A stretch of DNA of 64,000 nucleotides from contig RSEE01000075.1 in NCBI GenBank assembly GCA_003971905.1, positions 62,001 to 126,000 of the forward strand, read 5' to 3'. This DNA is from Moniliella sp. 'wahieum' (lineage: Eukaryota). Positions 11,532-59,289 of the stretch are shown one piece after another; the stretch's first letter is position 1, and each line of letters starts with the position of its first letter. The notes beneath the pieces were generated by a model. That model did not search any database. It was given only the letters and a program-made list of their open reading frames with translations, and had not been told where the DNA came from. Position numbers and translations under genes: made by a program.

Positions 11532-14500
11532 AGAGAAACATACCTCAGTGGGCCAAAAGTAGGAAGCGAATTTCCACAAGTGAAGTTCATGTCGCTCTTT
11601 GGCCGCGGCCGAGTCAAGAGCGTAGATGGTTTGAAGCACGTGGTCAATACGTTGGCCAACCGCCGACAGACACTCTTTGAGGACGGCGACTTTTTCTTCT
11701 CGTGCCAAGTGGTCGGTTCCTTGACGCAGCCGTTTGAGCTCTTTGCGACACGGACGCATCAGTTCCTTGCACTCGGCTTCATCCATGCTCTCTTCGTCCG
11801 ACGAGTCTGAGTAGTCCACCGTGACGCGCTTTTTGGCTGGCGCGGGCGCCGGGTAGGAAGAAGAGGCATGGTTCTGCCCATTGGCATGGGACCGGCCATT
11901 GGACGTAGCCACGTCGGGCGTTTGGCTCCCAGTCCGTTTCAGCTTCAAATTTTGCTCGTACTCTTCTGGCACGGCGTTCATCGCCTTGACGTGCTCGTCA
12001 TGGTCGCGAAGCACCTTGAGCAAATAGTCAGCACGGCGCATCAAATGCACTCCACTTGGCATGGGGCGCGAAGAACGTCCTCCAGCAACAGGGGCATCTT
12101 TGATATCTTTGGCATCTTGTTCGGGCGAAGGCTCCTTCTTCCCTCTACTCTCTGTCGTTTTCTTGCTTGCCCCTTTCTCCTTCTCTTTCTCGTCGAGGAA
12201 AAATTTGCCTGCAAACTCAAGGTCCGGGTCTTGCTCCATTTGATCCCACGCGCCCACGCCATACCGATAACACCCCAGCAGAAGATGGGCATCGTCCTTC
12301 GCGTCCCACGGCACGGACCAACTCATGGTCGTCTTGAGGGACCGGACCGGGATGCGCCAGCGCACCTGTTCCAACTGCGTCAACGGCGCCAACGTTTCGG
12401 TCAAGAGCGAAGACCGTTGAAGCGCAGTTCCGTTGTCTCGGCATTGATTTTGTCCACCCCACGAAACTTGACCAGCACAGCCTTTTGACGCAACTTGGAC
12501 ACGTCTTCCCCTTTTCCATCATGGCCGACATCAACGCACTGTGCTCCTGCACGGCCGCCGTGCAGATACTCATCAGTTCCCGCACGGCGTGCATCACCAC
12601 CGCACGATTCTTGCCCTGCAGACGAGCCTCCTCGATCATCTCATCGTACCGGGCCTCGGGATCGCCCCACTTGTGCAATCCACGCAGCAGAGTGCGCAGG
12701 TCCCGGTCTTTCAGCTCCATTGACTTTTCCGCTGCGGTTTTCATCTTGCGCCGGGGCGCCGCTGGACCTGCCGCTCCTTTCTTGCCCGATGCGCCGTCCA
12801 GGTCAGGCGAAGCCGAAAGTGAATCGCGGTGTCGTCTTGCCGCTGCTGCCGCTTGGGCCTTGGATTGTTCCCCTGCCTTTTCGGCCGCCTTGCGACGGCT
12901 GGGGAGCGACTCTTGCGCTGCCTCCTCCACCGCGCGTTGACGTTCTTCTTCCTCGGCTCTGCGCCGGTCCTCGAGGGGAATAATATCTTCCCACTTGACG
13001 TCCGTTTTGAAGTCCGACACCTGAGCAAACTGCTTCATGAACGCTTCGCCTCCGGACGACGCACCGCCACCAGGTCCTTCCGTGTCGATGGCATCGGCGT
13101 GTTTCAGAATATCGTCCAAGTCCATATCGTCCAACTTCTTTTGCTGGCCCGAGTCGTCTTCTTTGAACAAACTTTGTGCGCCAAACTTGAGAATCTCACC
13201 CAACTCTTCCTTGGACGGTTGCTGGGCCCGAGCCTGTGCCGCCGCCTGCGTCGACGAGGCAAAGGTACTGCCAGACGTGTCCATCTGATTGATGATGGCA
13301 TACTCGAGCACAATCTTACGCTTCGCCCGCTCAATCACATCTTCCTCCACTGTATCCTTGGTCAAAAAGCGAAAGACCGATACGTGGAACTTGGAATTGA
13401 GTCGGTGGGCGCGCGCCATGGCCTGCAAGTCGTTCTGCGGGTTCCAGTCCGAGTCAAAGATGATCACCGTGTCGGCGGTGGCAAGGTTGATGCCCAACCC
13501 GCCCGCGCGAGTCGAGAGCAAAAATGCAAAGTCGGGTGAATCAGGAGCGTTGAAATGGTCAATCGCCCTTCGTCGCTGGTCGGACGAGACGGTGCCATCG
13601 AGACGTTGGAAAATGTAGCCCCGAAGCCGCATATAGTCGCTAATAATGTCGAGCATGCGCACCATTTGAGAAAAGATGAGAACACGGTGCCCATCCGCCT
13701 TGAGACGAGCAAGTAGTTTGTCCAGCAACACCATCTTGCCTGAGTGCATGATCAGTCCTTTGAGCTGCTCCTCCCGCCCGACAGCAGCAGGCTCAGCGCC
13801 TTCAAATAGAAACGGGTGGTTCGCCGCCTTTTTCAACTCCATCGCAATGTTCAGCAGGGAAAACTGCGCACTGCTGTCTTTGCTCAAGATGGAAAAGTTG
13901 CGCGACAGAATCGCCTTGTACATCCGCCGCTGCATCCCTGACATCTCGACCCGCAGAATCTTCTCCGTCTTGCCGGGTAACTCCTTGATCACATCCTTCT
14001 TCAGCCGGCGAAGCATCACGTTGCCCAACTTGTCATGCAGCTCGGCGACCCGGGCTTGGTCCACCGTATCAATGTCAAAGTCTGTCTCGAGCGGGAACTC
14101 GTCGGGACGGAGGAAATGAAGGAGGGCAAGGAGCTCCTTGACGTTGTTTTGTAAGGGTGTGCCTGTGATAAGCAACTTGTTGGCCGTATGGAACGTCCCC
14201 AGCGCTTCGTACAACTGCGAGTCGGAGTTTTTCAGCCGATGCGCCTCGTCCACAGCAAGGTACTGCGCCATTTGATATGTCCCAACTCGGCCCGGTCCTT
14301 GAGCACAAACTCGTACGTCGTCACTAGCACATTGAACTTGATCTTCTTGCCCTGGCCAAACTCGTATTGGCGCATAATTTCGCGCGACGCAGTGTTGCCC
14401 ATGTAGGCAATCACGTTCAGATCGGGCGCCCACTGCTCAAACTGCTGCACCCAGGCCGGCAAGGTGGACAATGGGACGACGACCAAAAAGGGACCATACT

Positions 14501-16225
14501 GATGCAGCGAGTGGAAGAGGTACGAGAGAAAGGCAACCGTCTGCACCGTCTTTCCCAACCCCATCTCATCCGCCAAAATCCCATTCTGGTTCTCGCGCCA
14601 CAGATAGGCAAGCCAGTTGAGACCGGTCATCTGGAACTCCTTCAGCTGCCCTCCCACGTTGATGTACTCGGGTTGCTCGGTCATGCGCGCGTACTTGGGT
14701 CGACCCCTGAGGTACACAGTGCTGTTGGCTGGCACGCGGGCCGACTGGGCACGGGCAACGTACGCTTCGATGGCCGGCTTGGCGGTATCAGGAAGTGAAT
14801 GGGACGACTCCCAGGTCGCTTGGTCGTAGGGCAGTTCACACCACTTGCACAGGTACTGCAGATCGTCTCTTCCGCCATTGTCGGGCGAGCGCTTGATCAC
14901 ACGTTCCGACACAATCCGGTCCACTTGCTCGTACCGCTCCACCAACTCTTTCCGCCGTTCCTTCTCGATCGCCAACGCTTCCACGTCCTCGCGTGTCGCG
15001 TGGGATTGGCCAGAAGGGCCTTCTCGTACTCAAACGTTTGCTTGATAAAGTTGTCCACCTTCTTAATCCCAAGACACGTGTCGCGTACAAAGGCGTAGGT
15101 CTCCTCTGTGTTGTGCAGGTGCGAGTAGCCTTTCCATTTGATGGTAAAGACCATGTTGGTCTTAGGGTCGTCCTCCGGCTCGTCCACTTGGCGAAGCAGA
15201 ATCAATCTCAAATGTTAGAGAAGCCGATGTGGGGACAAGAAAAAGAGAGAGAAGCGGGGAGGAGAAGACAGAGAACAAAAGAAGAAGAAGAAGAAGACTT
15301 ACGCTTGGTATCATCACGAGCAATCGCCAGGACTTGATCAACAACAAACTCCGGCTGAACCCCGTCTTGTCCTTGACCCTGCTGCTGCTGTTGCCTCTTC
15401 TGCACGTCCACATGGTCTTCGAACGGGTCCGAGTCGGAACCAGCAAGGTGGGAAAATCGTCTTTGTAATTCGGCAAAGGTTTGCCGTTGCGAGAAGAAAA
15501 GCGCATCACCTCCTCCTCCGCCTCCACTTCGCTCCCACCACGAGACCGGACCGCCTTGCTCGCTCCACGGCCACGGCCGCGCTTGACTACCGTCGATTTG
15601 GGTTGGCTAGGACGACCGACCCGTTTGGTCGGTTTCCGCCGACCTGCAGGCCGGACCGCCTCTTCTTCTTCCTCCTCTTCCTCAAAGTCCACGTCGGCCT
15701 CCACATCCACATCCGTATCCATATCCATATCCATATCCTCCTCCCCCTCCTCCAGGTCGGCCTGGGACAAACGCACATCGGCATCCCGCGCATCATCGTA
15801 CCCCTCCTCGTCCGAGTGGGGAATGTACGATCGCTTAGTTGCTCGCCCCGACCGGCGGAGACCGTACAGGTCCGGATCTGCTTCCGCCGCATCAATCTCG
15901 TCGCCACCCACACGGTGGGCGCTGCCGCGGATCCTGCCTGCTGCGCAGGGGCCGAGGCCGCGAGGGGTGAGACGTGGTTATCCAGGGGAGGGAAGCGGTG
16001 GGTGTGGGTGGAGGCGGTGGCTGAGGGCGAGGAGAGCGAGATGTGGCTACGAGGGGGAGGGGAGCGGTGGGGGTGGACGGGGACGGGGACGGGGGCGGAG
16101 GGTGAGGGCGAGGCGGAGGGCGAGGTGGAAGGCGAGGGCGAGGGCAAGGGCGAGGGCGAGGCAGAGGGCGAGGAATCGCTCACAGTCCGCTCGGCGTCCG
16201 TGTCGCTGGCGGACGGTACGTACAT
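10755..16225 (-). CDS. CHD1: Chromodomain-helicase-DNA-binding protein 1 (SNF2-family remodeller); introns 11416-11543 and 15187-15302; several frameshifts; 3' end approximate
   Basis: [13 protein letters not shown]-terminal motif, tandem chromodomains ([28 protein letters not shown]), [52 protein letters not shown]-like region ([17 protein letters not shown]), C-terminal CHCT-like helices. Confidence 0.95.
11487..11537. repeat. (GA)n microsatellite in the last CHD1 intron
   Basis: Directly visible ~50-bp GA run preceded by a poly-G tract. Confidence 0.9.
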
Positions 16226-20102: not shown

Positions 20103-21494
20103 TGTTGACTGTGATCCTCTGGCTCCCAGTCGGTAGACCAGGTTCGCCTCGGTTCCATCGGCTTCCACGCTGACGTCCCTGCGTGTCACTGTCCCTGTGC
20201 CCTGCACTCTCTCCTGTGTGACTCACTGTCCCTGTGCCTAGTCCAGCCTCCTATATAGATGCCTCTGTACCCAGACCCAACTCTGGCTCCAATCCATCAC
20301 CTTCTCCTCATCCTTCTGCCCGTCCGGCTCCCTAGGCCAACAGAGCTACAATCTGATCCCCCCGGAAGGGGAGCGCTCTTCAAGCAAGCCCACCCCCAAG
20401 CCTACAAGCCCAAGCTAAGCCGCCAAGCCCACAAGACACACCGTCCTCCCGCCCAACAACACCACCGCCACAATCGGCACCTTACCGCCACAATCGGCAT
20501 ACTACCGCCACAATCGGCATACTACCGCCACAATCGGCACACTCGTCCCCCACAGATGGGGCAATGATTTTTAGGGACAACACACGACGGAACAAAACGT
20601 GTCGGGTATCGTCAACGAGACGAAATTCCTCCAACGACAAAACGGCGCAGGCGAATCGCAGAAAGCGGGGGTGGCTGCTCATCAAGTGCCCCACCCACGG
20701 CTACACGCCCCGGATTGCCAATTCATCCGGGGCACCTGGGAAAGGATGGGGGGGGTGGTCACCCAACTTCTTCCACTCCTCTTTTTCAACAACAAAGAGA
20801 ACCCAAACAGATCAAGACGGTTGACGCATAGCGCCCGTTCATTTCCCATGCCCAATGGACCCCACTGGCACCAGGCATGCGGAACCAAACAACTACCAAA
20901 CGCATCCAATTTGATGCCAAACGACCTTGGACCGCATTTACTCCAAGTTTCCAATTTTCTTTCACTACACCTATAACTGGTGCTTTTTACTTTTGCCCAC
21001 CAAATCGCTTCGGGGCGCAACCCTACTACTTTTACTTCTAAGACTTCTACAAGCATCTGGCGGTCGCACAATACACCAACCACAAGCGCTCGGCTCGTTC
21101 AGGTGTCATCCTGGACAGCGGGGGTGTAGGCCAGTCGTGTGGCCATGCACAACTCCAGGCCATTCGTCCCGGTTGCCACTCAAGTCCTCCCCTCTCTACA
21201 TCCACTGGCAGGAGCTCATCCCACAACCGATGTCTCCGGGTTCCCTGGCCAGCGGGGGTGTTGACTGTGATCCTCTGGCTCCCAGTCGGTAGACCAGGTT
21301 CGCCTCGGTTCCATCGGCTTCCACGCTGACGTCCCTGCGTGTCACTGTCCCTGTGCCCTGCACTCTCTCCTGTGTGACTCACTGTCCCTGTGCCTAGTCC
21401 AGCCTCCTATATAGATGCCTCTGTACCCAGACCCAACTCTGGCTCCAATCCATCACCTTCTCCTCATCTGCCCGTCCGGCTCCCTAGGCCAACA
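20103..21494 (+). mobile_element. Non-autonomous LTR retrotransposon (TRIM-like), 1392 bp; LTRs 20103-20342 (240 bp) and 21259-21494 (236 bp); 5-bp TSD CCCCT
   Basis: Two direct repeats TGTTG...CAACA differing by one 4-bp indel; CCCCT at 20098-20102 and 21495-21499; PPT CAGCGGGGG before the 3' LTR; 916-bp interior with no recognisable retroelement protein motif. Confidence 0.93.
20461..20540 (+). repeat. 4 x 20-bp tandem repeat (ACTACCGCCACAATCGGCAY) in the TRIM leader
   Basis: Directly visible; CCGCCACAATCGGCA core identical in all four copies. Confidence 0.9.
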
Positions 21495-48650: not shown

Positions 48651-50543
48651 CCACGTCGCGTCGCGCCAGAGGCCCAGGGAAGTACCGATGCGCAGTAGCT
48701 CCCGCGATAAAGGCTAGAGATAAAGGTGATCGTGCCAAAATACGCGCTTGTGTATTTAGAGCACAGTCGTCTCGCTTGGCAACACATCGCGAGCCGGATG
48801 GTGAAGTGGGATTCGCGTTAATCCATCTACCCCAACTTGCGAGTGGAGGTCATCTGAGACATCACGCATAGTCAACGTGGGAACGGTGAAAATATATTAT
48901 TTTCCCACTCCAGCGTGGAACGGTGGCTAAGGGGGCGACGCACAGCAATAGTTAATCTCATCAGTGGCAGGCCCAGTTCGGCGAGCTCTCGCCGCATATA
49001 CTTTTTGGTAACCACAACTGGATGATGTTGATGACGGCAATGAACGGGTTCGTAAAGGGCGCGAACATATTGCTAGCAATCGGACCGTGGTGACGTCTTA
49101 TTGTTTCCGACAGATCCTCAATACACAGAGTCGGAGACTGCAAAAAGGAGTGCGTCTTATTGTGAGGCATCAGACTTGTGTGTGCGCGCCGAGTTGATCG
49201 CCACTCTGGCTTGGATCCGGACTGAGGATCCGCTGTCGCTTCGGGTTCGGTAGACGGACCAGCCGACTGTGGGCAACGCACGTTTCAGCGTTGTCCTCCA
49301 TCCAAAAGCATCTTCCACATCGCCATTTTGCGTGGGAGACCCAGGGGGCAATCCAGAGAGGGGCTGACGGTGCAATTCAGGGGAGGCCACGTCTGGCATA
49401 TTAATGTCAGATGTGTGCCACAGTAGAGATGGTGGCCAGCGCTTGCCGGTTGGAACCAGCTAGGATCGTGCTTACGCGCCGGAGCGCAGGGTGCACGAAT
49501 GATGCCTGCTGCAGTGTCCAGTGTTGCAGCTGGGTTATTGGACGCGACCCGGTGTGCCCGGTGTGATCTTGCTGGTGACGTCGGGCGTCCCTGTGTCGAA
49601 AAGACGAGTACGGGTATCGACGACATATCCGGTGCATATCCAATGGCTGGCAGTGCTGGGCATTCTGGCAGCCGAAAGAGTTGAAGCAAGAGTTGGAGGA
49701 GCTAGGGCTCCAGTGTCCAGTACCTCGGTGTCGATACATTGCCGGTGTACCAACGGCGAACGTTTGAATGTGCGACTCGACTTTCACTGTTGGCCTGGCT
49801 GCTTCGATCTGTCCAGGACACTACGTAGCCTTATTCGCTCACCATCGAGCGACAGTTGGCTACTGCCGGTCACGGGCGAAGACGAGCTGGCAAGCCTGAC
49901 GAAGCCTATGTGCGCCTGTCGCCTTCCTATTCCCATCCCCAGGTTGGTCATGGGGTCAGATTCAATCTGGAGACGATAGTCGCCCCGTGCCCTTTTACCT
50001 TTTAGGTTGCCCGTACCCAAAACCGTCGCCCTCCCTGGTTTCCCCTCTGTCCCCCGTTCTTCCTCTATGCTACACCGCCTTGCCACACTGGCACCCACCT
50101 CTGCTATACGCCGAGAAGTCTTTCTTTGTCCCTAGCCCCGCTCGGACCCACCAATCAGCCCAAGTGCGTAACCACCGTGAGAGCTAGTCGACCTTAGGAT
50201 CTCCAATGGATTGTACCCTTAGGCCTTAGGCCTTAACCCCCCTGGGCGCCCCCCCCTGGCAGCGCCCGCGCGTACACTGCCTGGTGCAGAGAATGTTGGG
50301 CGCAGCCTGTTCCCTGCAGCAACAGCGCCTTAATACTTCTTCAGTTAGGCCCCTGGCTAGCCAAATCCGGCCAGGGGCAAAAGACTTGCCTAATGCATTG
50401 TATGGAGCCCCCCGCATGTGAGTGGCGCAATCTGCTCTACCCCCACACTGCAGCCCACACTTGACAAGAGCCAGCCAGACCCCCTGGTCATGCCTCTTTC
50501 CACATACACCCTGTTGACATCCGTCCTAGGACCGCGCGGACCC

Positions 50544-50559
50544 TGAGTCACGTGAGTCA
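50544..50559. promoter_or_regulatory. Tandem AP-1/Gcn4 sites TGAGTCA-cg-TGAGTCA overlapping a CACGTG E-box in the copia LTR (also 55442-55457)
   Basis: Exact motifs seen; binding is inference. Confidence 0.5.
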
Positions 50560-50725
50560 GCTTTCATTCCTTCCGAGCTCGCACCAGTCTTCTGGACGAG
50601 TCAGTCGCAGAAGCTTCTTAGTCCAATACGACGTTCAGTGCTCACATTCTGTGGTAGTAGCGAGGCCGACAGAGTTACATCCTTATCTGCTCATCCCTGA
50701 GCTGGCCAAAACTACACCCACAACC

Positions 50726-51973
50726 ATGGGCGCCAACGCTAACACCGATCTCTCGGTCAGCGACACCACAATGGTGAACAAGCGCGATTACTGGACACCA
50801 ACCGGTCGCGATCCGCCACCGATTGGCACCGACAACGAGGAACTCATGATGCTTTGCGCCGAAGCGCACCTGTGGTTCAAGAAGACGAACGACATCGATG
50901 TCGTTAAAGAGAAGATCAACAGAGCTATACACGACAGAGCCGAGTGGCTTGGATGGAAGGACGAACCTACGTCTATCACGACAAACTGGGTTCGACGGGC
51001 TACGAATTTTGTGGTGCAAAACATCCACCAAATGGAAACTCAACCCAACGCAACTTTGGGGGCACCTACAGGCGCAGCCTCGCGACCCGAGTACGACCTT
51101 TACAGATCACTACGCGAGTCTCCCACCAAGAATATCAAGTGGCCTGATCTGAACAAAGACCCGTCCGCCTACAGCGCTTGGGAAGACGAATTTCTCTTCG
51201 CGATAACAGATGCCCACCCCCACGCAAGCGACGTCGTCCAGAATGGTCGCAGCTCCCGCTACTTCACCGAGGACCTCGACAGACGCTTGCACAACCTTCT
51301 TAGGGAAGCCATGCCGTCAACCCTCTTCCGGACGATCCGCACCCACCACGAAATATCATGCACCCAGGACACGCTGAACATGCTGCGTCAGCGGTATGGA
51401 TATACGCCTACCGCAAACAGAGGGCCTCTACTCATTCGCTACTTTTCGGCCGACCAAGGAAACCGATCGGGTCGAGACTACCTCGACTACATGGAAGAGA
51501 TCAGTGCAAGCCTGACGCGAGCGGGCATCCCACTTACGGAAGAGCAGGAACGCACTGGGATCCTACTCGGCTTACGCGACATGAGCATTCGCCAGCGTGA
51601 AGAGCGCTCGAGTCTAGACAAGTTACGGCAGGCCGTGATGGACATACCAGCCGCCACGTATCCCGGTGGAGAAAGGAAGAGAAACGGAGGCAAGCCGGTC
51701 AACGGAGGAACGCCTTGGACTCGACCCGACAGCGGGGGACGACCCACCAGCGGGGGAAAAAACTCCAGCGGGGGCAAAGCCGGCGACGACAACCTCGCGG
51801 ACACAAAGACCAAGGGGCAAGACCGCACCAACCAACCCTGGCGCAGCGCGACGTCTAATAAACCTGTTGTCCCTCCGCGCAACCCAGGCCGAGCCAACGC
51901 TCACGTCGCTCAGAGAGCGAGCTCTCCCGAGTCTGAAGTGATTGACGTTGATGCGGGCACAGCTGACTACTAG
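50726..51973 (+). CDS. gag: Copia Gag (no CCHC zinc knuckle visible), ends at UAG in frame with pol
   Basis: First ATG after the LTR at 50726; helical capsid-like region (YSAWEDEF...LNMLRQRYG...DYLDYMEEI) followed by a basic Gly-rich tail. Confidence 0.85.
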   Translation: MGANANTDLSVSDTTMVNKRDYWTPTGRDPPPIGTDNEELMMLCAEAHLWFKKTNDIDVVKEKINRAIHDRAEWLGWKDEPTSITTNWVRRATNFVVQNIHQMETQPNATLGAPTGAASRPEYDLYRSLRESPTKNIKWPDLNKDPSAYSAWEDEFLFAITDAHPHASDVVQNGRSSRYFTEDLDRRLHNLLREAMPSTLFRTIRTHHEISCTQDTLNMLRQRYGYTPTANRGPLLIRYFSADQGNRSGRDYLDYMEEISASLTRAGIPLTEEQERTGILLGLRDMSIRQREERSSLDKLRQAVMDIPAATYPGGERKRNGGKPVNGGTPWTRPDSGGRPTSGGKNSSGGKAGDDNLADTKTKGQDRTNQPWRSATSNKPVVPPRNPGRANAHVAQRASSPESEVIDVDAGTADY

Positions 51974-53611
51974 GAACTCGGGGGCGAAATGCGAATCATC
52001 CGGGCATTATATGACAGTGGGGCATTCCCATCCATTTGGAAAGACAAATCCGTCTTCACATCCATGACCCCTTGCGACGACGAGATAGAGGTTGCTAACG
52101 GGACACATGTAAAGGCGGAAGGACGAGGCACGGCCACAATCCGTATCCGATGCTTAGGAGGACACCAAATGGAGATAAAACTCCCCAACAGCCTATACAT
52201 GCCCCGTTTCAGCCGAAATCTCGTCAGTGTAGCACACCTGTCGAACACCGGAATCGCATCATACTTCGCCCCACACCAGAAGGGTATCTGGCTTGGTAAC
52301 CCAGGATCCACCCTACGAAAAGTAACCGGCAGTGACTATCAATTCACGATCTTACACAACCCGCGAACGCCACCCACACCCCTGCGGGCCATGGCGACCA
52401 AACCGATCAAACCGGCCGACCCACCCTCAACCCCAAACTCCCTCGCAGCATCCCTGGCCCTGGACCACGTCTCTAAAGCCCACAAACGCTGGAACCACGC
52501 AGCCATCGACCTCCTCCCCTGGCTTACACGATCGGAAACCGCAGGCCTCCGCGTCACAGCCAAGCATATCTCCCTCTGTCGTTCAGAGTGGGATTGCCCA
52601 ACATGCGCGGTGGCACTAGCGACAGCATCGCCCCATCCGAGCCGGGACCGCCTCCGATCCAAAAGACCTTTCGAGGTCCTCCACGTCGACGTAGTAGACC
52701 TCCCCCGGGTAACCGGCATGGGGCACGGATACGCCCTCGTCGCCGTTGATGACTTCACGCGGTACGTCTTCACCACAGCGATCCCGACAAAGGGCGCTGC
52801 AACGAAGGAACTGCGGAACCTCATATTGCGGGAGCAACGCTACGGCCCGGACAGACTGCTGCGGACTTTGCGCACGGACAACGCCCCCGAATTGACAAGC
52901 GCACTGCAACCTTTTCTGGACGAGCAAGGCATCACGTCAGAACGGACAATCCCGGGGCAGAGTGCTAGCAACGGTGTGGCTGAGCGTGCCATCCGAACCA
53001 TAACGACTCGTGCAAGGCAGTTGCTCTTGGGTACAGGTCTTCCGACGTCGGACTGGTGGGAACACAGCCTCCACGCTGCGTGCTTCACCCAAAACCAAAT
53101 GCCACTCAAAACATCCGGGGAAGACAACAAATCGCGATTTGAGCGATACAAAGGCCACGCATACTCGTTACCGATGCAACCCTTTGGCCGCGTTGCATAC
53201 CTCCATCTGCCCGAGTCACGCCGCGAGCACAAGCTCAGCGCGCGGGCAGAGGAAGGTATGCTGGTAGGATACCACCATCAGCGCGGATCAAAGGGATGGC
53301 TCTTCGCCACATACCAACCATCCCTGGGTACCTTCACCTACCGCTGGTCGAAACCGTACAAATGGGGCAACGCCATCTACCCCCATCTCCACCCCGACCA
53401 CTTCCCACCCGACATCTCCAAATCACCTCAAATTAAAATCGACAGTGAAAAAGACGCTAACCCTACTCCGCCAGCCGCGGCAGCACCCATGCCCCGAACC
53501 GCCGCCACACCCCAGACACCCGCTCCCACCACCACCCCCCCTCCGCGCCGCTACCCCCTCCGCCAGCGCACCACCCGCACCTCCCTCGACCTGCACACTC
53601 CCAATCGCTGA
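51974..53611 (+). CDS. pol: Copia Pol part 1: aspartic protease and integrase
   Basis: LYDSGA protease; H(KRWN)H...C(PT)C zinc motif; LHVDV, RTDNAPE, SNGVAERAIRT DDE core; KLSARA. Confidence 0.93.
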   Translation, partial: ELGGEMRIIRALYDSGAFPSIWKDKSVFTSMTPCDDEIEVANGTHVKAEGRGTATIRIRCLGGHQMEIKLPNSLYMPRFSRNLVSVAHLSNTGIASYFAPHQKGIWLGNPGSTLRKVTGSDYQFTILHNPRTPPTPLRAMATKPIKPADPPSTPNSLAASLALDHVSKAHKRWNHAAIDLLPWLTRSETAGLRVTAKHISLCRSEWDCPTCAVALATASPHPSRDRLRSKRPFEVLHVDVVDLPRVTGMGHGYALVAVDDFTRYVFTTAIPTKGAATKELRNLILREQRYGPDRLLRTLRTDNAPELTSALQPFLDEQGITSERTIPGQSASNGVAERAIRTITTRARQLLLGTGLPTSDWWEHSLHAACFTQNQMPLKTSGEDNKSRFERYKGHAYSLPMQPFGRVAYLHLPESRREHKLSARAEEGMLVGYHHQRGSKGWLFATYQPSLGTFTYRWSKPYKWGNAIYPHLHPDHFPPDISKSPQIKIDSEKDANPTPPAAAAPMPRTAATPQTPAPTTTPPPRRYPLRQRTTRTSLDLHTPNR

Positions 53612-55415
53612 CGACCCCACCGACACGACCTACCATGCTCGTGCTGCAGCCGCCACGCCCCACTGCGCCGCACCAGAGATCGGCATCGCCCGCCCCCTAC
53701 CTGACACATCCGCCCCCCCGTTTGCCGACACAGTTCAACCTCCCGAATACGCCGCCATGACTGCTCTCAGCGCACCCATCCACCCGGACACGGTTCAGCT
53801 CACCAAGGATGGCGTACCCCTCGCTCCCAAGACGCTCAAGGGTCTCGAGACTCACCCCTCCTTTGCCATGGTCAAGCAGGCTATGGCCGACGAGGTGGCC
53901 ACACTCGCGCGATACGGCACCTACGAGGCTACGTACCCACCACCGGGTGCACAAATCCTCATAGGACTATGGCGCATCACCACAAAGACGGACGCCGAGG
54001 GCCGGTTCCTGCGCCACCGCGCGCGCTTTGTCGCGGGCGGACACCAACAATCGGCCGAGACTTGGGGCCAGACGTTCGCACCATCGGTGCGCACACCTGC
54101 CATCCTGACCCTCGTCGTGCTGGCCGAGAAGTATAAGTTTGGCCTCTTCTCGGCGGACGTCAATGCAGCGTACCTGAACGCCCCCCTCGAAGAAGCAGTC
54201 TACATCCGCCCACCCCCCTACTTCCCCGAAGCGGGTGGTCGCGTGTGGCGTCTCAAGAAGAGTCTATACGGGCTACATCAGAGCGGAGCAAACTGGGCAC
54301 GATACATCCGGAACCTGCTGCGTGACAAGCTCGGCTTCACGCAAAGCTTGACCGAGCCCTGCTTGTTCGTGCGCGCTGCACCACCGGGTGAGCAGATCCT
54401 CCTGGCGGTCCACACCGACGATCTGCTCCTCGCATGCAAGTCACACCAAAAGTACGAGGAGTTTATGGCCGAGATAAACACACACATTGATGTTCGTGGT
54501 AACGGTCCCCTTCACTACCACCTGGGATGCCAATACGATCGGATCGGTGGGGAGCTGTACCTGAGCCAACCAAAGTTCATCGAGGAAGTGGTGGCAAAGC
54601 ACCACATCAAAGCCCCGTGGATCCGGACTCTCCCACATCCCGTACGGATGATACCGCCCCGTGCCGACCCTGAACCCCCATCCCTCCCAGCCTTGCGCAA
54701 GGCATATCAGGGGAAGATCGGATCGGGACTGTGGGCTGCACGAATGGGCCGGCCTGACTCCCTCTTCGCTATCACGGCCCTCAGCAGAGCCGCTGCCGAC
54801 CCATCGCAGCAGCATCATCAAGCAGTCGATGACTTCCTTCGCTACCTGTACCATACTCGAGGAAAGGGCCTGAGGTTGACCCCAACATCAGATGCACCGG
54901 CCATTGCGCTGTATACAGATTCCGACTTGGCGGGAGATCCCATCCAGGCACGCTCCACATCTGGATGCCTACTGATGGTGTACGGTGTGCCGGTGTCGTG
55001 GCGATCCATTCTTCAGCCGAAGAGCGTTACCAGTACCGCCGCCGCCGAATATACGGCAGGATATGATGGACTGGTTGACGCCAACTATGTCAAGAACATC
55101 ATGATCGAGCTTGGGGCCATCGGCGAGGGTACACCCATTCATTGGTATTGCGACAATAAGTCTGTCGTCGATCTCGCCCACAAATTTGGCAGCACCGGCA
55201 AGCTCCGAGAGCTGAAGATCCGGTACCACAATGTACGGCAACACGTGGACTCGGGCGAGGCCATACTTGTACACATCCCCGGCGAAAGGAACCCAGCGGA
55301 CGTCCTCACCAAGCCTCTCGGCCGTCCCGCCCTGACAAGCCATCTTGCTCAACTCCGCGTCGAGGAGATGGATCCAGTCCACATGACTGGGCCCTCCGGT
55401 CAGCGGGGGTGTTGA
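53590..55415 (+). CDS. pol: Copia Pol part 2: reverse transcriptase and RNase H (+1 relative to part 1); ends GQRGC* inside the 3' LTR; 5' junction approximate
   Basis: HRARFVAGG, ADVNAAYLNA, LKKSLYGLHQSG, HTDD catalytic motif, YTDSDLAG, AAEY, CDNKS, NPADVLTK. Confidence 0.93.
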
Positions 55416-57149
55416 CATCCGTCCTAGGACCGCGCGGACCCTGAGTCACGTGAGTCAGCTTTCATTCCTTCCGAGCTCGCACCAGTCTTCTGGACGAGTC
55501 AGTCGCAGAAGCTTCTTAGTCCAATACGACGTTCAGTGCTCACATTCTGTGGTAGTAGCGAGGCCGACACACCCCACCACCATCCCTCGCCACCGTTCCA
55601 CCAGAGTAAGTGCAACAGCCCGTCCAGGCAAAATGCTCGTGCGAGCCCCTCTCGCGGACCCAGCAATATCGCCGGTCCAGCTCACACCCGCACCGTCAAC
55701 AATAAGCAGTTTTGCTCGCACCATCTCGGCTCCAACGCAACCCGTAACACTGTGGTTGCATCGGTCGTGCCTGACATGACGCTGCGTCGGTAAAAGAGGA
55801 GTTGTACTACTCTTGGCTCCACCTCTTGGGTGCGCCTACAGCTGTATCGTTTGACAACGGGGCATCTTTGTGTTCGTAAGATATGTGGCGCTGGCTTTTC
55901 CACTTTTTGAGATATCATGCAGCCTTCGCTTCTTAGGTTAAGGTGGGAAGCGTACACCATCCGGTTTTTTTTGTGCACTACTAGTATGTGTAGGCACCAA
56001 ATAGGGTTTTGCGCGGTTGTGCCGCTAAAGAATTTGTTCCTCATCCTCTAGATCTGGCGTATGCCCCTCAAGGTAGTTGTGTGCGCCAGAGTCGCATCCC
56101 AATTGTTAGAAGGGGTTAGCTACGCCTCAAAACTATCCTCTCATCGGTGATCAGCTGTATCCAATGGGCAAATCGCCTGATGAGCGGCTGACTGTGTGTG
56201 GAAATTGTGGATATGATCCTGTATGATCATGTCTGCATCTCAAGTCCACTTCCTTTCAACCCAAAGTTTGGAATTTGGTTATCTGCTGGGCGGTTATCTC
56301 ATCCCTACCAAACAGTAATAGTCACTTTTCCCCTGGCACACACCACGATCTCCAATCCCAAGGTGTGAGTTCCACACTTACAGAGGCTGGCATTAATTAA
56401 CCACTTCTCTGTCGGTTTTGGGGATTAAACGTTTTGATGCTTTGTCAGTCCTCTCCCACTGACGAATGGCATGCCTATTGACGTCTTGCGAAACGGTGGT
56501 AGCTTCGCCAGCCACACGCGCCATGACAACTTCGGGTATGATATCTCCTGTGTAACCTTGCAAAAATGCACGTTTGCCCGGGTGTCTACGCCCCAATCTC
56601 CGGGCTCCTTTGTTCCCGCCCAGAGTTTTGTAGCTCCTATACACAGGGATAATAATAATCACTAATTGTAAAAGATTAAGAGAGGCAGTCGGTGCAGCCA
56701 AAAGTGGGATTTTGTTAGTAGGTCCTGAGCCGGATGTCAATGTGATGATGTTCTGTTGACCCGATGTGGCAACCACTGCCGAGATGTGCATCACTGGTGC
56801 AGAAAAAATACGATATTGCGTCATGTCAACAGCAGAATCTTTAACGCGCTCGACGGAAACATTTGGTCGACATATGACGATAAACAGCCTGGATGGAAGA
56901 GAACCATTACCACCCGGTTCTAGTGGACATATGGTCATAGCAGAAGAACTGATCTCATAAGTCATGCTTCACCTGGGAGAGTGTGAACTCGGACGACGCG
57001 GACAATGTGAGTCATCCAACCAAAGTAGTATTTCCAAAAGTCCTGGAACAGTCGACTTTCACTTAAGACTGATGGCGCATACTAATGTATTCATGTGGAT
57101 TCTGTCAAGAGTGACACTCACCAATCGCTTTGTAAGAGGTCCGGACACA

Positions 57150-57950
57150 GGTTTGATATTTACGCCTAGAATGAAAATCAAATTGACACTGCGGTGACGA
57201 ATAAAAGAACTAAAGTCATAGAACATTGGCACGACCTATTCAGAAAACAAAAATCCTGGACGCCTACAATATGGCTTTGATTTCAAACCCAGGTCTCAGG
57301 TTAAAACGAATGGGACGTCCTCAACTAGATGAAAGTGTGGGTGAAAGAAAGTGTGTAGATAGGGTTGAATAGCCTTGACAAGTGATACTATAATCACGCA
57401 AGAAAAGGATGAGGGTTTTTCCTATCCTATCGCTATGTCGACTTCAATTTGCCCGTTCTATTTGGGCGCCATGCCGTCTATTGCTCCGATTTAGCTCATG
57501 AATACAGAGCAGCTTCAACGTCCTATTTCAATAAGGGTGTTGCGTTGCCCGGTGCTAACGTAGTCCTCGCGAATTCAGCACTTCAAGCATGCCGTTGAGG
57601 TCCTTCAATGTTAGATAGCATTTGACCTGTTGGATAATCTTCAAGCACCCGTGGAAAGGAACAAAGTGTCTCTCTGCAATGCATTGATTCGGTGTCTACC
57701 CCTGTATTGGACTTACCCCGACGCCCAAAGGCACGCATGATCACGCGGATCAGCCCCCAGTCCATCATATGCTTGCTTCTGGTGAAAACAGTTGAGCATT
57801 AATGAAGAATTAACTATACTTTTTATGGTCTTGTTTGAAGAACTTCAATTGTTTTCGTTTGACTGTCCCCCGTTATTTGGTGAGGGAAAATAGCTAATTG
57901 GGCTCCAGATAATCCAATCGCCTATACGCGTTTGCTATGTATCATTTAAG
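57150..57950 (+). mobile_element. Degenerate Ty3/gypsy reverse transcriptase remnant
   Basis: Collinear fragments GRLQYGFDFK, QEKDE...YLGAMP, LMN, HFKHAVEVLQ echo the gypsy RT motifs GKLRLCVDYR, EGDE..TAF..VMPFG, LMN, HLKHV..VL; many stops. Confidence 0.45.
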
Positions 57951-59289
57951 GTGACAGAACGGGCAATAACCGACGGTAGTCACCCTGGCCAGTTATGACG
58001 AATGGAAACAAAGGAAAAAAAAAACAATGTTGGGGCCTACCCGAAAGGGGTTACCATCCCACTTCACAACCAAAGGAATGAATGGTATTTTTATTTTCCC
58101 CTGGTGAGTTGACACGTTACATCGTCGATCATCACATGGACTATGGAATACCTAATGTGACCTGAGTTGTGCGGTGAGTAATCAACGTATATCATGTGAA
58201 AATGGAACCAACCTCTTTCAATATTTGGGCTAGAACCACGGACGTTTTTGTTAGACGGTGGTGCTAGGGTTTCCCTGCATGGCTCTCTGTTGATCGCCGG
58301 CGGTCGCCTATTCGGGCGGAAGAGATCCGATGGCAGGCTGTGCACCCCTGCTCCTCCATCTCTCTCTACTCTCTCCTGTTTCGCTGCCTTCAGGCGTTGC
58401 TTTAAGACGTTTGGGTCATCAATTGGCCTTCACGCAGTGGCTTAAGGTTCCTTTGTAGCTGTGATTCATCATAGAATCGCGAGTACTGCCAAGTCGCAAT
58501 CTAGCAACTTTGTCAAGTAGGTTAGCCCATTTTTTAGTTCCCTCCTGATTAACACCAGTCCTCTGGGAGATTTCGTTGCAGACGCTGCTTCGATGTTCAA
58601 TGCCACATCCAGTTGTAGCAGGAATTGCGGGCGGTAATGTCAGTGCTCTCATATATATATCACCATATTCAACTCTTCCCCCGATCCACTGACACCACCG
58701 GCGACACTATTTCCATTGAGGACTAAGTATATTGATCAGACTTCTGTTCTTGTAATTATGGGACGCAGATCTATTTTTTGTTCCTGTGCAGTCTAATTAC
58801 TGGTGACATGCGACCAGTGGCACTGCAGCAGTAGTGTTAGTATCTTTCTTATTTTTCTCTCTTGCGAATGGGAGCATAGCTCCTGTGGGAGCTATGCAGT
58901 GAATGTTATGACCTTACCACCTCCATCCCCACTTAGCTGCACAATACTTCCACGGTGCCTGTGAAGGGCACACGCGAACTGGGTTGACCCAGGGACGGAG
59001 AGCTGGACGACGGACGAGGTCGTGAAGAGGAGGAGCAACTAGGAGGGAAGTTGCTTGTATTACTGGGTTGATGAGAATTGGTGAGGACAGTCGAGGAAGA
59101 CACCAATGGATCGTGGGGGAACACCATATCGCAACGGGGGATGCTGACAATTTGGTGGCCACGCGGGGGCTACCAACTCACAGTTGTGCATGCATGCTTC
59201 CTCTTCTCAGATTTGGGGAGAGTACGGGTTCCGCTGGCCCGCCTGCCAAGGGTTTCCCCTCACAACTACACCGGCCTGGGAACTGGAAG

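What the first reader, a model, noticed from the sequence alone, without database searches (positions are those of the whole stretch)
51950..52040. Copia gag and pol are in one frame, separated by a single UAG: candidate stop-codon readthrough element
Seen: gag ends ...GCT GAC TAC TAG (51971-51973) and the next codons GAA CTC GGG GGC GAA ATG CGA ATC ATC CGG GCA TTA TAT GAC AGT GGG run in the same frame straight into the protease DSG motif 14 codons later. The element has identical LTRs and an intact TSD, so it is young, and the stop lies exactly at the Gag/PR boundary. Known: most copia elements use one ORF, splicing or a +1 shift; readthrough is known in a minority (Candida Tca2, plant Sirevirus env, gammaretrovirus UAG plus pseudoknot). 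Inference: the 3' context UAG-GAACUC-GGGGGC is neither CARYYA nor UGA-CUA; with AAUGC/GCAUU complementarity downstream it may be a different, possibly structured, recoding signal. Reinitiation at AUG 51989 is an alternative.
Basis: partly seen in the sequence, partly recalled or inferred. Interest (0 to 1): 0.8.

Follow-up and report, generated by a model that had tools for sequence, protein, structure and literature searches.

The report
Copia retrotransposon with in-frame gag stop
A young jumping gene of the copia type in a smut-related fungus ends its coat-protein gene with a stop codon that sits in frame with its enzyme genes, a rare but already known layout whose bypass mechanism cannot be settled from this error-prone assembly.

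Summary
A 5058-bp Ty1/copia element (50512-55569) has identical 160-bp LTRs and a CACCC target duplication. Its gag ends at TAG 51971-73, and protease-integrase follows in the same frame, with DSG 14 codons later.

What I added:
- The stop is ancestral, not a copy-specific mutation. The only Gag relative found among 1.84 billion representatives (P0023, 28% identity) ends at exactly the same aligned codon.
- "One frame" is only partly true. RT/RNase H lies in the +1 frame, with the break confined to 53591-53597.
- The assembly carries indel errors. The host CHD1 gene shows four frame breaks in 3.6 kb, so the pol break is probably an artefact. A G5 run lies between the TAG and the protease, which leaves a few-percent chance that the in-frame relation is itself an artefact.
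- No known readthrough signal was found: no CARYYA, no UGA-CUA, no pseudoknot or hairpin better than shuffles, no Rfam match. There is also no usable in-frame intron and no TURBS motif.

In-frame gag stops are in print for fungal copia elements (Tca2, VdLTRE5). Low-level UAG readthrough is the best reading (about 0.5). This is a new member of a known, rare kind, of moderate interest.

The parts
50507..50511 (+). target-site duplication CACCC (left copy)
   Evidence: the same 5 bases flank both LTRs
50512..50671 (+). 5' LTR, 160 bp, TGTTGACA...GGCCGACA
   Evidence: 100% identical to 55410-55569
50726..51970 (+). gag ORF, 415 codons. ATG context is ACAACCATGGG, with no upstream ATG in 50512-50725
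   Evidence: It is the first ORF after the LTR. Its only relative is P0023. No Pfam family matched, so the label 'gag' rests on position, on a helical prediction of low confidence, and on a sub-threshold Retrotrans_gag hit of P0023 (E 0.084)
51971..51973 (+). gag stop codon TAG, in frame with PR-IN
   Evidence: same aligned codon as the stop of P0023
51974..51991 (+). 18-nt junction between the stop and the protease homology. It contains the G5 run 51980-51984 and ATG 51989-51991
   Evidence: The in-frame relation depends on the length of this stretch
52010..52252 (+). protease beta-barrel (Pfam Pol_BBD); DSG at 52013-52021
   Evidence: residues 13-93 of the ORF that starts at 51974, E 6e-12
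52661..52960 (+). integrase core (Pfam rve); the SH3-like domain follows at about 53174-53302
   Evidence: 56% identity to P0002 over 52481-53590
53591..53597 (+). frame break between IN and RT. Seven bases stand where the relative has three codons, and downstream coding is in the +1 frame
   Evidence: P0002 residues 4-391 match 52481-53590 in frame 2, and residues 395-1004 match 53598-55412 in frame 3.
53598..55415 (+). RT (RVT_2, about 53937-54611) and RNase H, ending at TGA 55413-55415, six bases inside the 3' LTR
   Evidence: (68% identity to P0002)
55402..55409 (+). polypurine-like run AGCGGGGG directly before the 3' LTR
   Evidence: read from the sequence, function inferred
55410..55569 (+). 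3' LTR
55570..55574 (+). target-site duplication CACCC (right copy)

Best explanation
This is a recently inserted Ty1/copia LTR retrotransposon in a Ustilaginomycotina fungus. Its gag gene ends with a genuine, lineage-conserved UAG placed exactly at the Gag/protease boundary. Most ribosomes stop there and make Gag. A small fraction most likely decode the UAG with a near-cognate tRNA and continue in frame into PR-IN-RT-RNase H, giving the usual excess of Gag over Gag-Pol.

No known stimulatory signal is present, so any bypass would be of the non-canonical kind still unresolved for Candida Tca2. The +1 break between IN and RT is most likely an assembly indel, not part of the expression strategy.

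Shown: the anatomy, the in-frame relation as assembled, conservation of the stop position in one diverged relative, the absence of known signals, and the indel noise of the assembly.

Inferred: that readthrough is the bypass mechanism, and that the pol break is an artefact.
For: - Anatomy: identical LTRs and TSD.
- Gag-TAG-PR are in one frame, with DSG 14 codons after the stop. The domain order is PR, IN, RT.
- Conservation: HMMER against 1,835,955,588 representatives gave 94 proteins at E<=0.001. Only one is a Gag relative: P0023, 410 aa, E 4e-17, query 86-413 aligned to 90-408 of 410.
- BLASTP and MAFFT both align the C-termini flush...ESEVIDVDAGTADY-stop against ...EGEILSVDLALSDK-stop.
- P0023 and the pol relative P0002 each sit on a single Logan contig of 5089 nt, the same length as record 3 of run X1. 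They very probably belong to one sister element.
- P0002 is an unbroken 1004-aa IN-RT-RNase H with 56% and 68% identity to ours. Pol is therefore maintained in the lineage and must be translated past the gag stop.
- The other two frames are closed by stops just upstream of the TAG, at 51939 and 51964. As assembled there is no overlap ORF for frameshifting.
- No usable in-frame 5' splice site exists. There are 7 in-frame GT in 51250-51959, and the best is GTGATT, which would give a 36-nt intron.
- Precedent in print: Tca2 has gag-UGA-pol in frame, with pol made from the full-length RNA (PMC2194720, abstract and passages). VdLTRE5 of Verticillium is a copia element with 159-bp LTRs and gag-UGA-pol without CARYYA (PMC3441728, passages). 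Tj1, Tosmo and Tcry1 have an in-frame TGA (PMC10085805, passages).
- Assembly noise: host CHD1 shows 4 frame changes without intron-sized gaps against P0119 (89% identity) and P0120.
Against: - No stimulatory element was found. The 3' context GAACTC is not CARYYA, and the stop is not UGA-CUA or UGA-CGG.
- From my own knowledge of the termination literature, not from a call: the +4 base G and the C at -1 are not leaky contexts.
- Folding of 51971-52070 gives z = +0.82, with 153 of 200 shuffles folding at least as well.
- No H-type pseudoknot turned up under my criteria, while 300 of 300 shuffles scored as well or better. The best helix was matched by 135 of 300 shuffles.
- Rfam gave 0 matches at E<=1.
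- Only one relative exists, and its DNA could not be obtained. It is therefore unknown whether its PR is in frame with its gag.
- P0002 starts 166 codons downstream of the point equivalent to our TAG. No PR protein from that contig was found among the 13 PR-type hits whose contigs I checked, out of 93.
- No reads cover the TAG.
- The assembly has indel errors, and a G5 run lies inside the 18 nt that set the frame relation.
- There is no expression or protein evidence of any kind.
Confidence: 0.5

Rival explanations
1. Termination-reinitiation or independent initiation at AUG 51989-91, 15 nt after the stop. Pol would be made as a separate protein, not as a Gag-Pol fusion.
For: - An AUG with G at -3 lies five codons after the UAG.
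- A protein starting there would still contain the whole Pfam protease domain, which begins 2-3 residues before the D.
- The MSA shows no conserved motif further upstream in single-ORF copias.
- Recalled, not from a call: coupled termination-reinitiation is known in fungal viruses (victoriviruses, hypoviruses).
Against: - There is no plus-strand TGGGA (calicivirus-type TURBS motif 1, recalled) within 415 nt upstream of the stop.
- The upstream 116 nt fold no better than shuffles, z = +0.41.
- From established knowledge: reinitiation after a 415-codon ORF is normally very inefficient in eukaryotes, and a free Pol lacks the Gag moiety that usually brings it into particles.
- Conservation of the AUG could not be tested.
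Confidence: 0.1
2. The in-frame relation is an assembly artefact. The G run at 51980-84 is miscounted, PR really lies in the +1 frame, and the element uses a Ty1-like +1 frameshift near the gag stop.
For: - The assembly has indel errors. There are 4 frame breaks in 3.6 kb of CHD1, and by homology two or three of them are single bases missing from short homopolymer runs.
- The only homopolymer of 5 or more near the junction lies exactly between the TAG and the protease homology.
- With one more G, the PR frame would be open from 51942, overlapping the last 10 gag codons.
- Recalled: yeast Ty1, Ty2 and Ty4 copia elements use +1 frameshifting.
Against: - The per-run error rate is low. 1 of 40 runs of 4 or more is wrong in CHD1.
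- None of the other 18 runs of 5 or more in the element's coding frames breaks a frame.
- By my reading, no Ty1-like or Ty3-like shifty heptamer is present in 51942-51973.
Confidence: 0.07
3. A short intron containing the stop is spliced out of a fraction of transcripts, or a subgenomic pol RNA is made from an internal promoter.
For: - The AG of the TAG is the only AG between the stop and the protease. It is preceded by CTGAC (51963-67), which resembles a branch site (consensus recalled).
- Forbes et al. considered splicing for Tca2 and found weak promoter activity in its junction (PMC2194720, passages).
Against: - None of the 7 in-frame GT candidates within 720 nt upstream resembles the host's GTAAGT-type donor. 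The best, GTGATT, would make a 36-nt intron. A host donor is seen in CHD1 at about 15303.
- No RNA run holds the element, so nothing could be observed.
Confidence: 0.08
4. Dead or non-autonomous copy. The stop and the frame break are both real lesions, and the copy was mobilised in trans.
For: - As assembled there are two interruptions.
- Only one copy is in the window, and the whole genome is not held, so copy number and variation are unknown.
Against: - The stop is shared at the same codon with a relative whose Gag is only 28% identical. It predates this copy by far.
- All three coding segments are otherwise open: 416, 546 and 606 codons with no internal stop.
- The frame break is of the kind the assembly produces in host genes.
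Confidence: 0.1

Closest known systems
Tca2 (pCal), Ty1/copia retrotransposon of Candida albicans
   Same: - A fungal copia element with gag and pol in the same frame, separated by one stop codon.
- Pol must come from the full-length RNA.
- The immediate context is not a canonical readthrough signal, and the mechanism is unresolved (PMC2194720 abstract and passages; PMC7175516 passages).
   Different: - Tca2 uses UGA, followed by a purine-rich spacer and a predicted pseudoknot. Here the stop is UAG, and no pseudoknot or hairpin beats shuffles.
- Tca2 is 6426 bp with 280-bp LTRs in an ascomycete yeast. This element is 5058 bp with 160-bp LTRs in a Ustilaginomycotina host.
- No sequence comparison with Tca2 was made.
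VdLTRE5, Ty1/copia element of Verticillium dahliae
   Same: - Short LTRs: 159 bp there, 160 bp here.
- Gag and pol are separated by one in-frame stop, with no CARYYA. The authors call this organisation very rare (PMC3441728 passages).
   Different: - UGA rather than UAG, and an ascomycete host.
Moloney murine leukaemia virus gag-pol readthrough (UAG followed by G, an 8-nt spacer and a pseudoknot)
   Same: UAG followed by G, in frame at the Gag/PR boundary; about 5% readthrough there (PMC2194720 background passage).
   Different: The defining downstream pseudoknot is not found here. MoMLV is a retrovirus of animals, not a copia element.
Tj1/Tosmo/Tcry1 Ty3/gypsy elements of fission yeasts
   Same: An in-frame stop between gag and pol in fungal LTR elements. 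The stop is essential for Tj1 transposition (PMC10085805 passages).
   Different: They share a strictly conserved GAA-TGA-CT octamer. Here the context is TAC-TAG-GA. They also belong to a different superfamily.

Membership tests
Ty1/copia (Pseudoviridae) LTR retrotransposon | Direct LTRs ending TG..CA, flanked by a short target-site duplication | tested here: met
   160-bp LTRs 100% identical; TG..CA ends and the 5-bp duplication CACCC
Ty1/copia (Pseudoviridae) LTR retrotransposon | pol domain order PR - IN - RT - RNase H, with an RVT_2-type RT | tested here: met
   Pfam Pol_BBD, rve and SH3_retrovirus in 51974-53608, and RVT_2 in 53268-55415
Ty1/copia (Pseudoviridae) LTR retrotransposon | Recognisable Gag upstream of PR | tested here: inconclusive
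   - No Pfam family, even at E<=10.
- The relative P0023 has a sub-threshold Retrotrans_gag hit, E 0.084.
- The AlphaFold model is helical but has mean pLDDT 40.
- The Atlas hint is below 0.9.
- Position and size fit Gag.
Fungal copia elements with an in-frame gag stop (Tca2, VdLTRE5) | gag and pol in the same frame, separated by a single stop | tested here: met
   as assembled. Caveat: the G5 run inside the 18-nt junction in an indel-prone assembly.
Fungal copia elements with an in-frame gag stop (Tca2, VdLTRE5) | The stop is a maintained feature of the lineage, not a lesion of one copy | tested here: met
   The stop falls at the same aligned codon in the one relative found, P0023. The frame of that relative's PR is unknown.
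Fungal copia elements with an in-frame gag stop (Tca2, VdLTRE5) | Pol is actually produced past the stop | not testable with these tools
   No RNA run is listed and there are no protein data.
Type I readthrough signal (TMV-like) | UAG followed by CAR YYA | tested here: not met
   The sequence after the stop is GAA CTC.
Type II readthrough signal | UGA followed by CGG or CUA | tested here: not met
   The stop is UAG followed by GAA.
Type III readthrough signal (MuLV-like) | UAG-G | tested here: met
   TAG G at 51971-74.
Type III readthrough signal (MuLV-like) | A stable pseudoknot or hairpin starting about 8 nt after the stop | tested here: not met
   - MFE z = +0.82.
- No H-type pseudoknot with stems of 4 bp or more and a spacer of 4-12 nt; 300 of 300 shuffles did as well or better.
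- The best helix was matched by 135 of 300 shuffles.
- Rfam: none.
- No covariation test was possible.
Termination-reinitiation (TURBS-type) | A restart AUG close to the stop | tested here: met
   ATG 51989-91, 15 nt after the TAG.
Termination-reinitiation (TURBS-type) | An upstream motif complementary to 18S rRNA (UGGGA) within about 100 nt | tested here: not met
   The nearest plus-strand TGGGA upstream is at 51556. The motif itself is recalled.
Ty1-type +1 programmed frameshift | pol in the +1 frame, overlapping the end of gag | tested here: not met
   PR is in the zero frame. The +1 frame carries TGA at 51939 and the -1 frame carries TGA at 51964. It would be met only if the G run were one base longer.

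The most novel reading that the evidence does not exclude
A small copia lineage of Ustilaginomycotina fungi has kept a UAG at the Gag/protease boundary since before its Gag diverged to 28% identity. It passes that stop without any of the known readthrough stimulators: no CARYYA, no UGA-CUA, no 3' pseudoknot. This would point to a signal or trans-acting route of stop-codon bypass not yet described, possibly the same unresolved one as in Tca2 and VdLTRE5, or to termination-reinitiation in a retrotransposon.
Probability: 0.15. Interest if true: 0.6.

Novelty: new member of a known kind. Interest (0 to 1): 0.33.

Why it matters
How fungal copia elements with an in-frame gag stop make Pol has been open since the Tca2 work of 2007. 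There the junction sequence alone did not drive readthrough (PMC2194720), and a 2020 review still calls the mechanism undetermined (PMC7175516).

This element would be a basidiomycete example that uses UAG and has a short, structure-free junction. The stop position is conserved in a diverged sister element. That gives a compact second system for reporter tests. It does not by itself reveal a new mechanism, and the sequence quality of this assembly limits what can be concluded.

Tried and rejected
- Whole genome: none is held, so other copies could not be aligned. The rest of the window has no other copy by blastn or tblastx.
- Sequencing runs: no RNA holder is listed. The only holder is one food-metagenome run, X1, with 0.19 of the words. 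Its near-identical contigs cover parts of 52329-53036 and 54724-55504 only, not the TAG and not 53591-97.
- DNA of relatives: two related-loci scans in metagenome contigs, one in viral contigs and one in genome contigs matched 95, 193, 122 and 43 pattern stretches. None was a relative. The 5089-nt contig of the sister element could not be fetched.
- Word-based search with Gag+PR: none of 8000 scored candidates reached E<=0.01.
- Relative's protease ORF: 13 of the 93 PR-type hits had their contigs checked. None lies on the 5089-nt contig.
- Homology across the stop: 21 of 101 local alignments (from the 94 hits) span the stop position by 8 or more residues on both sides. An MSA of 64 copia junctions shows only a variable linker upstream of the xxWxxDSG strand. 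I therefore do not count this as evidence for a fusion protein.
- Gag fold: AlphaFold on the 2-sequence alignment gave mean pLDDT 40.4, too poor for a fold search, so none was run. Pfam at E<=10 and the ESM Atlas gave only sub-threshold hints.
- Intron ending at the TAG's AG: rejected for lack of an in-frame donor.
- RIP as the source of the TAG: the element is 55-64% GC with identical LTRs. Conservation of the stop in the relative also makes a recent C-to-T change unnecessary.
- UAG reassignment: not tested properly. TAG occurs once in 1568 element codons.
- Gao et al. 2003 (RNA 9:1422) is not held. What I say about it comes from citing passages or from recall.
Full report
**Observation.** The sequence reads ...GCT GAC TAC TAG, with TAG at 51971-73. 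It then continues GAA CTC GGG GGC GAA ATG CGA ATC ATC CGG GCA TTA TAT GAC AGT GGG in the same frame, so the D of DSG is the 14th codon. A stop-to-stop listing gives 50465..51973 and 51974..53611 in one frame. Counted from ATG 50726, gag has 415 sense codons, and TAG is its only stop. The element spans 50512-55569 (5058 bp). Its two 160-bp LTRs are 100% identical, they run TG..CA, and CACCC lies on both sides. Pfam finds Pol_BBD (protease), rve and SH3_retrovirus in the frame after the TAG, and RVT_2 further on. This is the copia domain order.

RT-RNase H is not in the gag/PR-IN frame.
- PR-IN ends at TGA 53609-11, and RT lies in the +1 frame, 53268..55415.
- The relative P0002 (1004 aa, one unbroken IN-RT-RNase H) aligns with residues 4-391 on 52481-53590 in one frame and residues 395-1004 on 53598-55412 in the next.
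- The break therefore lies within the 7 bases 53591-53597, where the relative has three codons.

**Quality of the assembly.** No whole genome is held.
- The host gene next door is CHD1 on the minus strand. It is 89% identical to P0119 and 75% identical to Tilletiaria anomala, which also places the host in the Ustilaginomycotina.
- Against both homologues it changes frame four times between 15187 and 11541 with no intron-sized gap.
- The local sequence shows, by homology, single bases missing from short runs at three places and two extra bases at one.
I treated it as a lead and tested the point on a different gene.
- The pol break is therefore most simply an assembly indel.

The same noise bears on the finding itself. 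The frame relation between the TAG and the protease homology rests on 18 nt (51974-51991) that contain a G5 run.
- In CHD1, 1 of 40 runs of 4 or more is wrong.
- In the element, none of the other 18 runs of 5 or more breaks a frame.
- I put the chance of a hidden indel there at a few percent.
- If the run were one G longer, PR would be in the +1 frame, open from 51942.

**Is the stop a lesion or a feature?**
- A word-based search with Gag-X-PR-IN found 21 proteins at E<=0.001 among 7998 scored candidates. Only P0002 is close; the others are at most 33% identical single-ORF copia polyproteins.
- A word-based search with Gag-X-PR found nothing among 8000 scored candidates.
- HMMER against 1.84 billion representatives found 94 proteins at E<=0.001. 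Of these, 93 match only the protease part, and one is a Gag relative: P0023, 410 aa, E 4e-17.
- BLASTP and MAFFT both align the two Gag C-termini flush, so both proteins have one residue after the last aligned D and then stop.
- P0023 and P0002 each occur on one Logan contig of 5089 nt, the length of record 3 in run X1. They almost certainly come from one sister element.
- Two Gags only 28% identical that stop at the same codon cannot be two independent nonsense mutations. The terminator at the Gag/PR boundary is ancestral, while pol is maintained at 56% and 68% identity.
- It remains unknown whether the sister's PR is in frame with its gag. P0002 starts 166 codons after the equivalent of our TAG. 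No PR protein of that contig was found among the 13 of 93 hits whose contigs I checked. Its DNA was not obtainable.

**Mechanism.** As assembled, the other two frames are closed by stops just before the TAG, at 51939 and 51964. That excludes an overlap ORF.

*Splicing.* The TAG's own AG is the only possible acceptor before the protease, and CTGAC precedes it. However, none of the 7 in-frame GT in the 720 nt upstream looks like a donor. The best is GTGATT, which gives a 36-nt intron. The host uses GTAAGT.

*Known readthrough signals.* The context TAC TAG GAA CTC is neither CARYYA nor UGA-CUA/CGG, nor the fission-yeast GAA-TGA-CT.
- Only the G after the UAG recalls the MuLV type. The defining structure is absent.
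- The 100 nt from the stop fold at -22.2 kcal/mol, z = +0.82.
- My scan for H-type pseudoknots found none, while all 300 shuffles scored as well or better. The best helix was matched by 135 of 300 shuffles.
- Rfam has no match at E<=1.

*Reinitiation.* It is possible at AUG 51989. That start would still include the whole Pfam protease domain. But no UGGGA motif lies within 415 nt upstream, and the upstream fold is unremarkable, z = +0.41.

I therefore commit to low-level readthrough of a conserved UAG as the most likely route (about 0.5). It would have no identified stimulator. Reinitiation, a hidden +1 arrangement, splicing or subgenomic RNA, and a dead copy are rivals at about 0.1 or less each.

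**Comparison with what is known.** In-frame gag stops are rare in copia elements but are in print for fungi.
- Tca2 of Candida albicans has UGA plus a predicted pseudoknot. Its junction was insufficient for readthrough in S. cerevisiae, yet Pol comes from the LTR-driven RNA, and the mechanism is still open (PMC2194720, abstract and passages; PMC7175516, passages).
- VdLTRE5 of Verticillium dahliae has 159-bp LTRs and UGA with no CARYYA, and its authors call the organisation very rare (PMC3441728, passages).
- Fission-yeast gypsy elements carry a conserved in-frame TGA, essential in Tj1 (PMC10085805, passages).
- I found no paper describing a basidiomycete copia element with this layout in searches. 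The survey of Gao et al. 2003 was not readable here.

**Verdict.** The element is a new member of a known, rare kind: a UAG instead of UGA, a basidiomycete host, and no predicted structure. The finding is real as assembled, and the stop is a maintained feature. The 'structured recoding signal' is not supported, and 'one frame, single UAG' overlooks a probably artefactual break in pol. Interest is moderate. The decisive data are accurate reads, the sister contig, RNA and a reporter.

Noticed in passing
window 11541-15187 (minus strand): The host CHD1 gene changes reading frame four times against close homologues, with no intron-sized gaps: near 15002, 14265, 12500 and 12408. This points to indel errors in the assembly at roughly one per kb in this stretch.
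   Followed up: yes
window 20103-21468: A second pair of direct repeats, 210 nt and 100% identical, continues past a 4-nt indel. It starts TGTTGAC like the copia LTR. The second copy is preceded by CCAGCGGGGG, the same run as before the copia 3' LTR. Only this 19-nt stretch is shared with the copia element. It may be a small non-autonomous LTR element that uses the same termini.
   Followed up: partly
window 55400-55415: The pol ORF ends six bases inside the 3' LTR, so its last codons (Q R G C stop) are encoded by the polypurine-like run plus the LTR terminus. The relative P0002 ends with the same SGQRGC, so this overlap is conserved.
   Followed up: partly
window 56000-58500: GC content drops to 44-48% just downstream of the element, against 53-64% elsewhere in 46-56 kb.
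   Followed up: no
whole window: TGGGA occurs 219 times on both strands, against 167 +/- 13 in shuffles (0 of 100 shuffles reach it). This probably comes from the many GGT/GGA/GAG-rich short tandem repeats listed.
   Followed up: no
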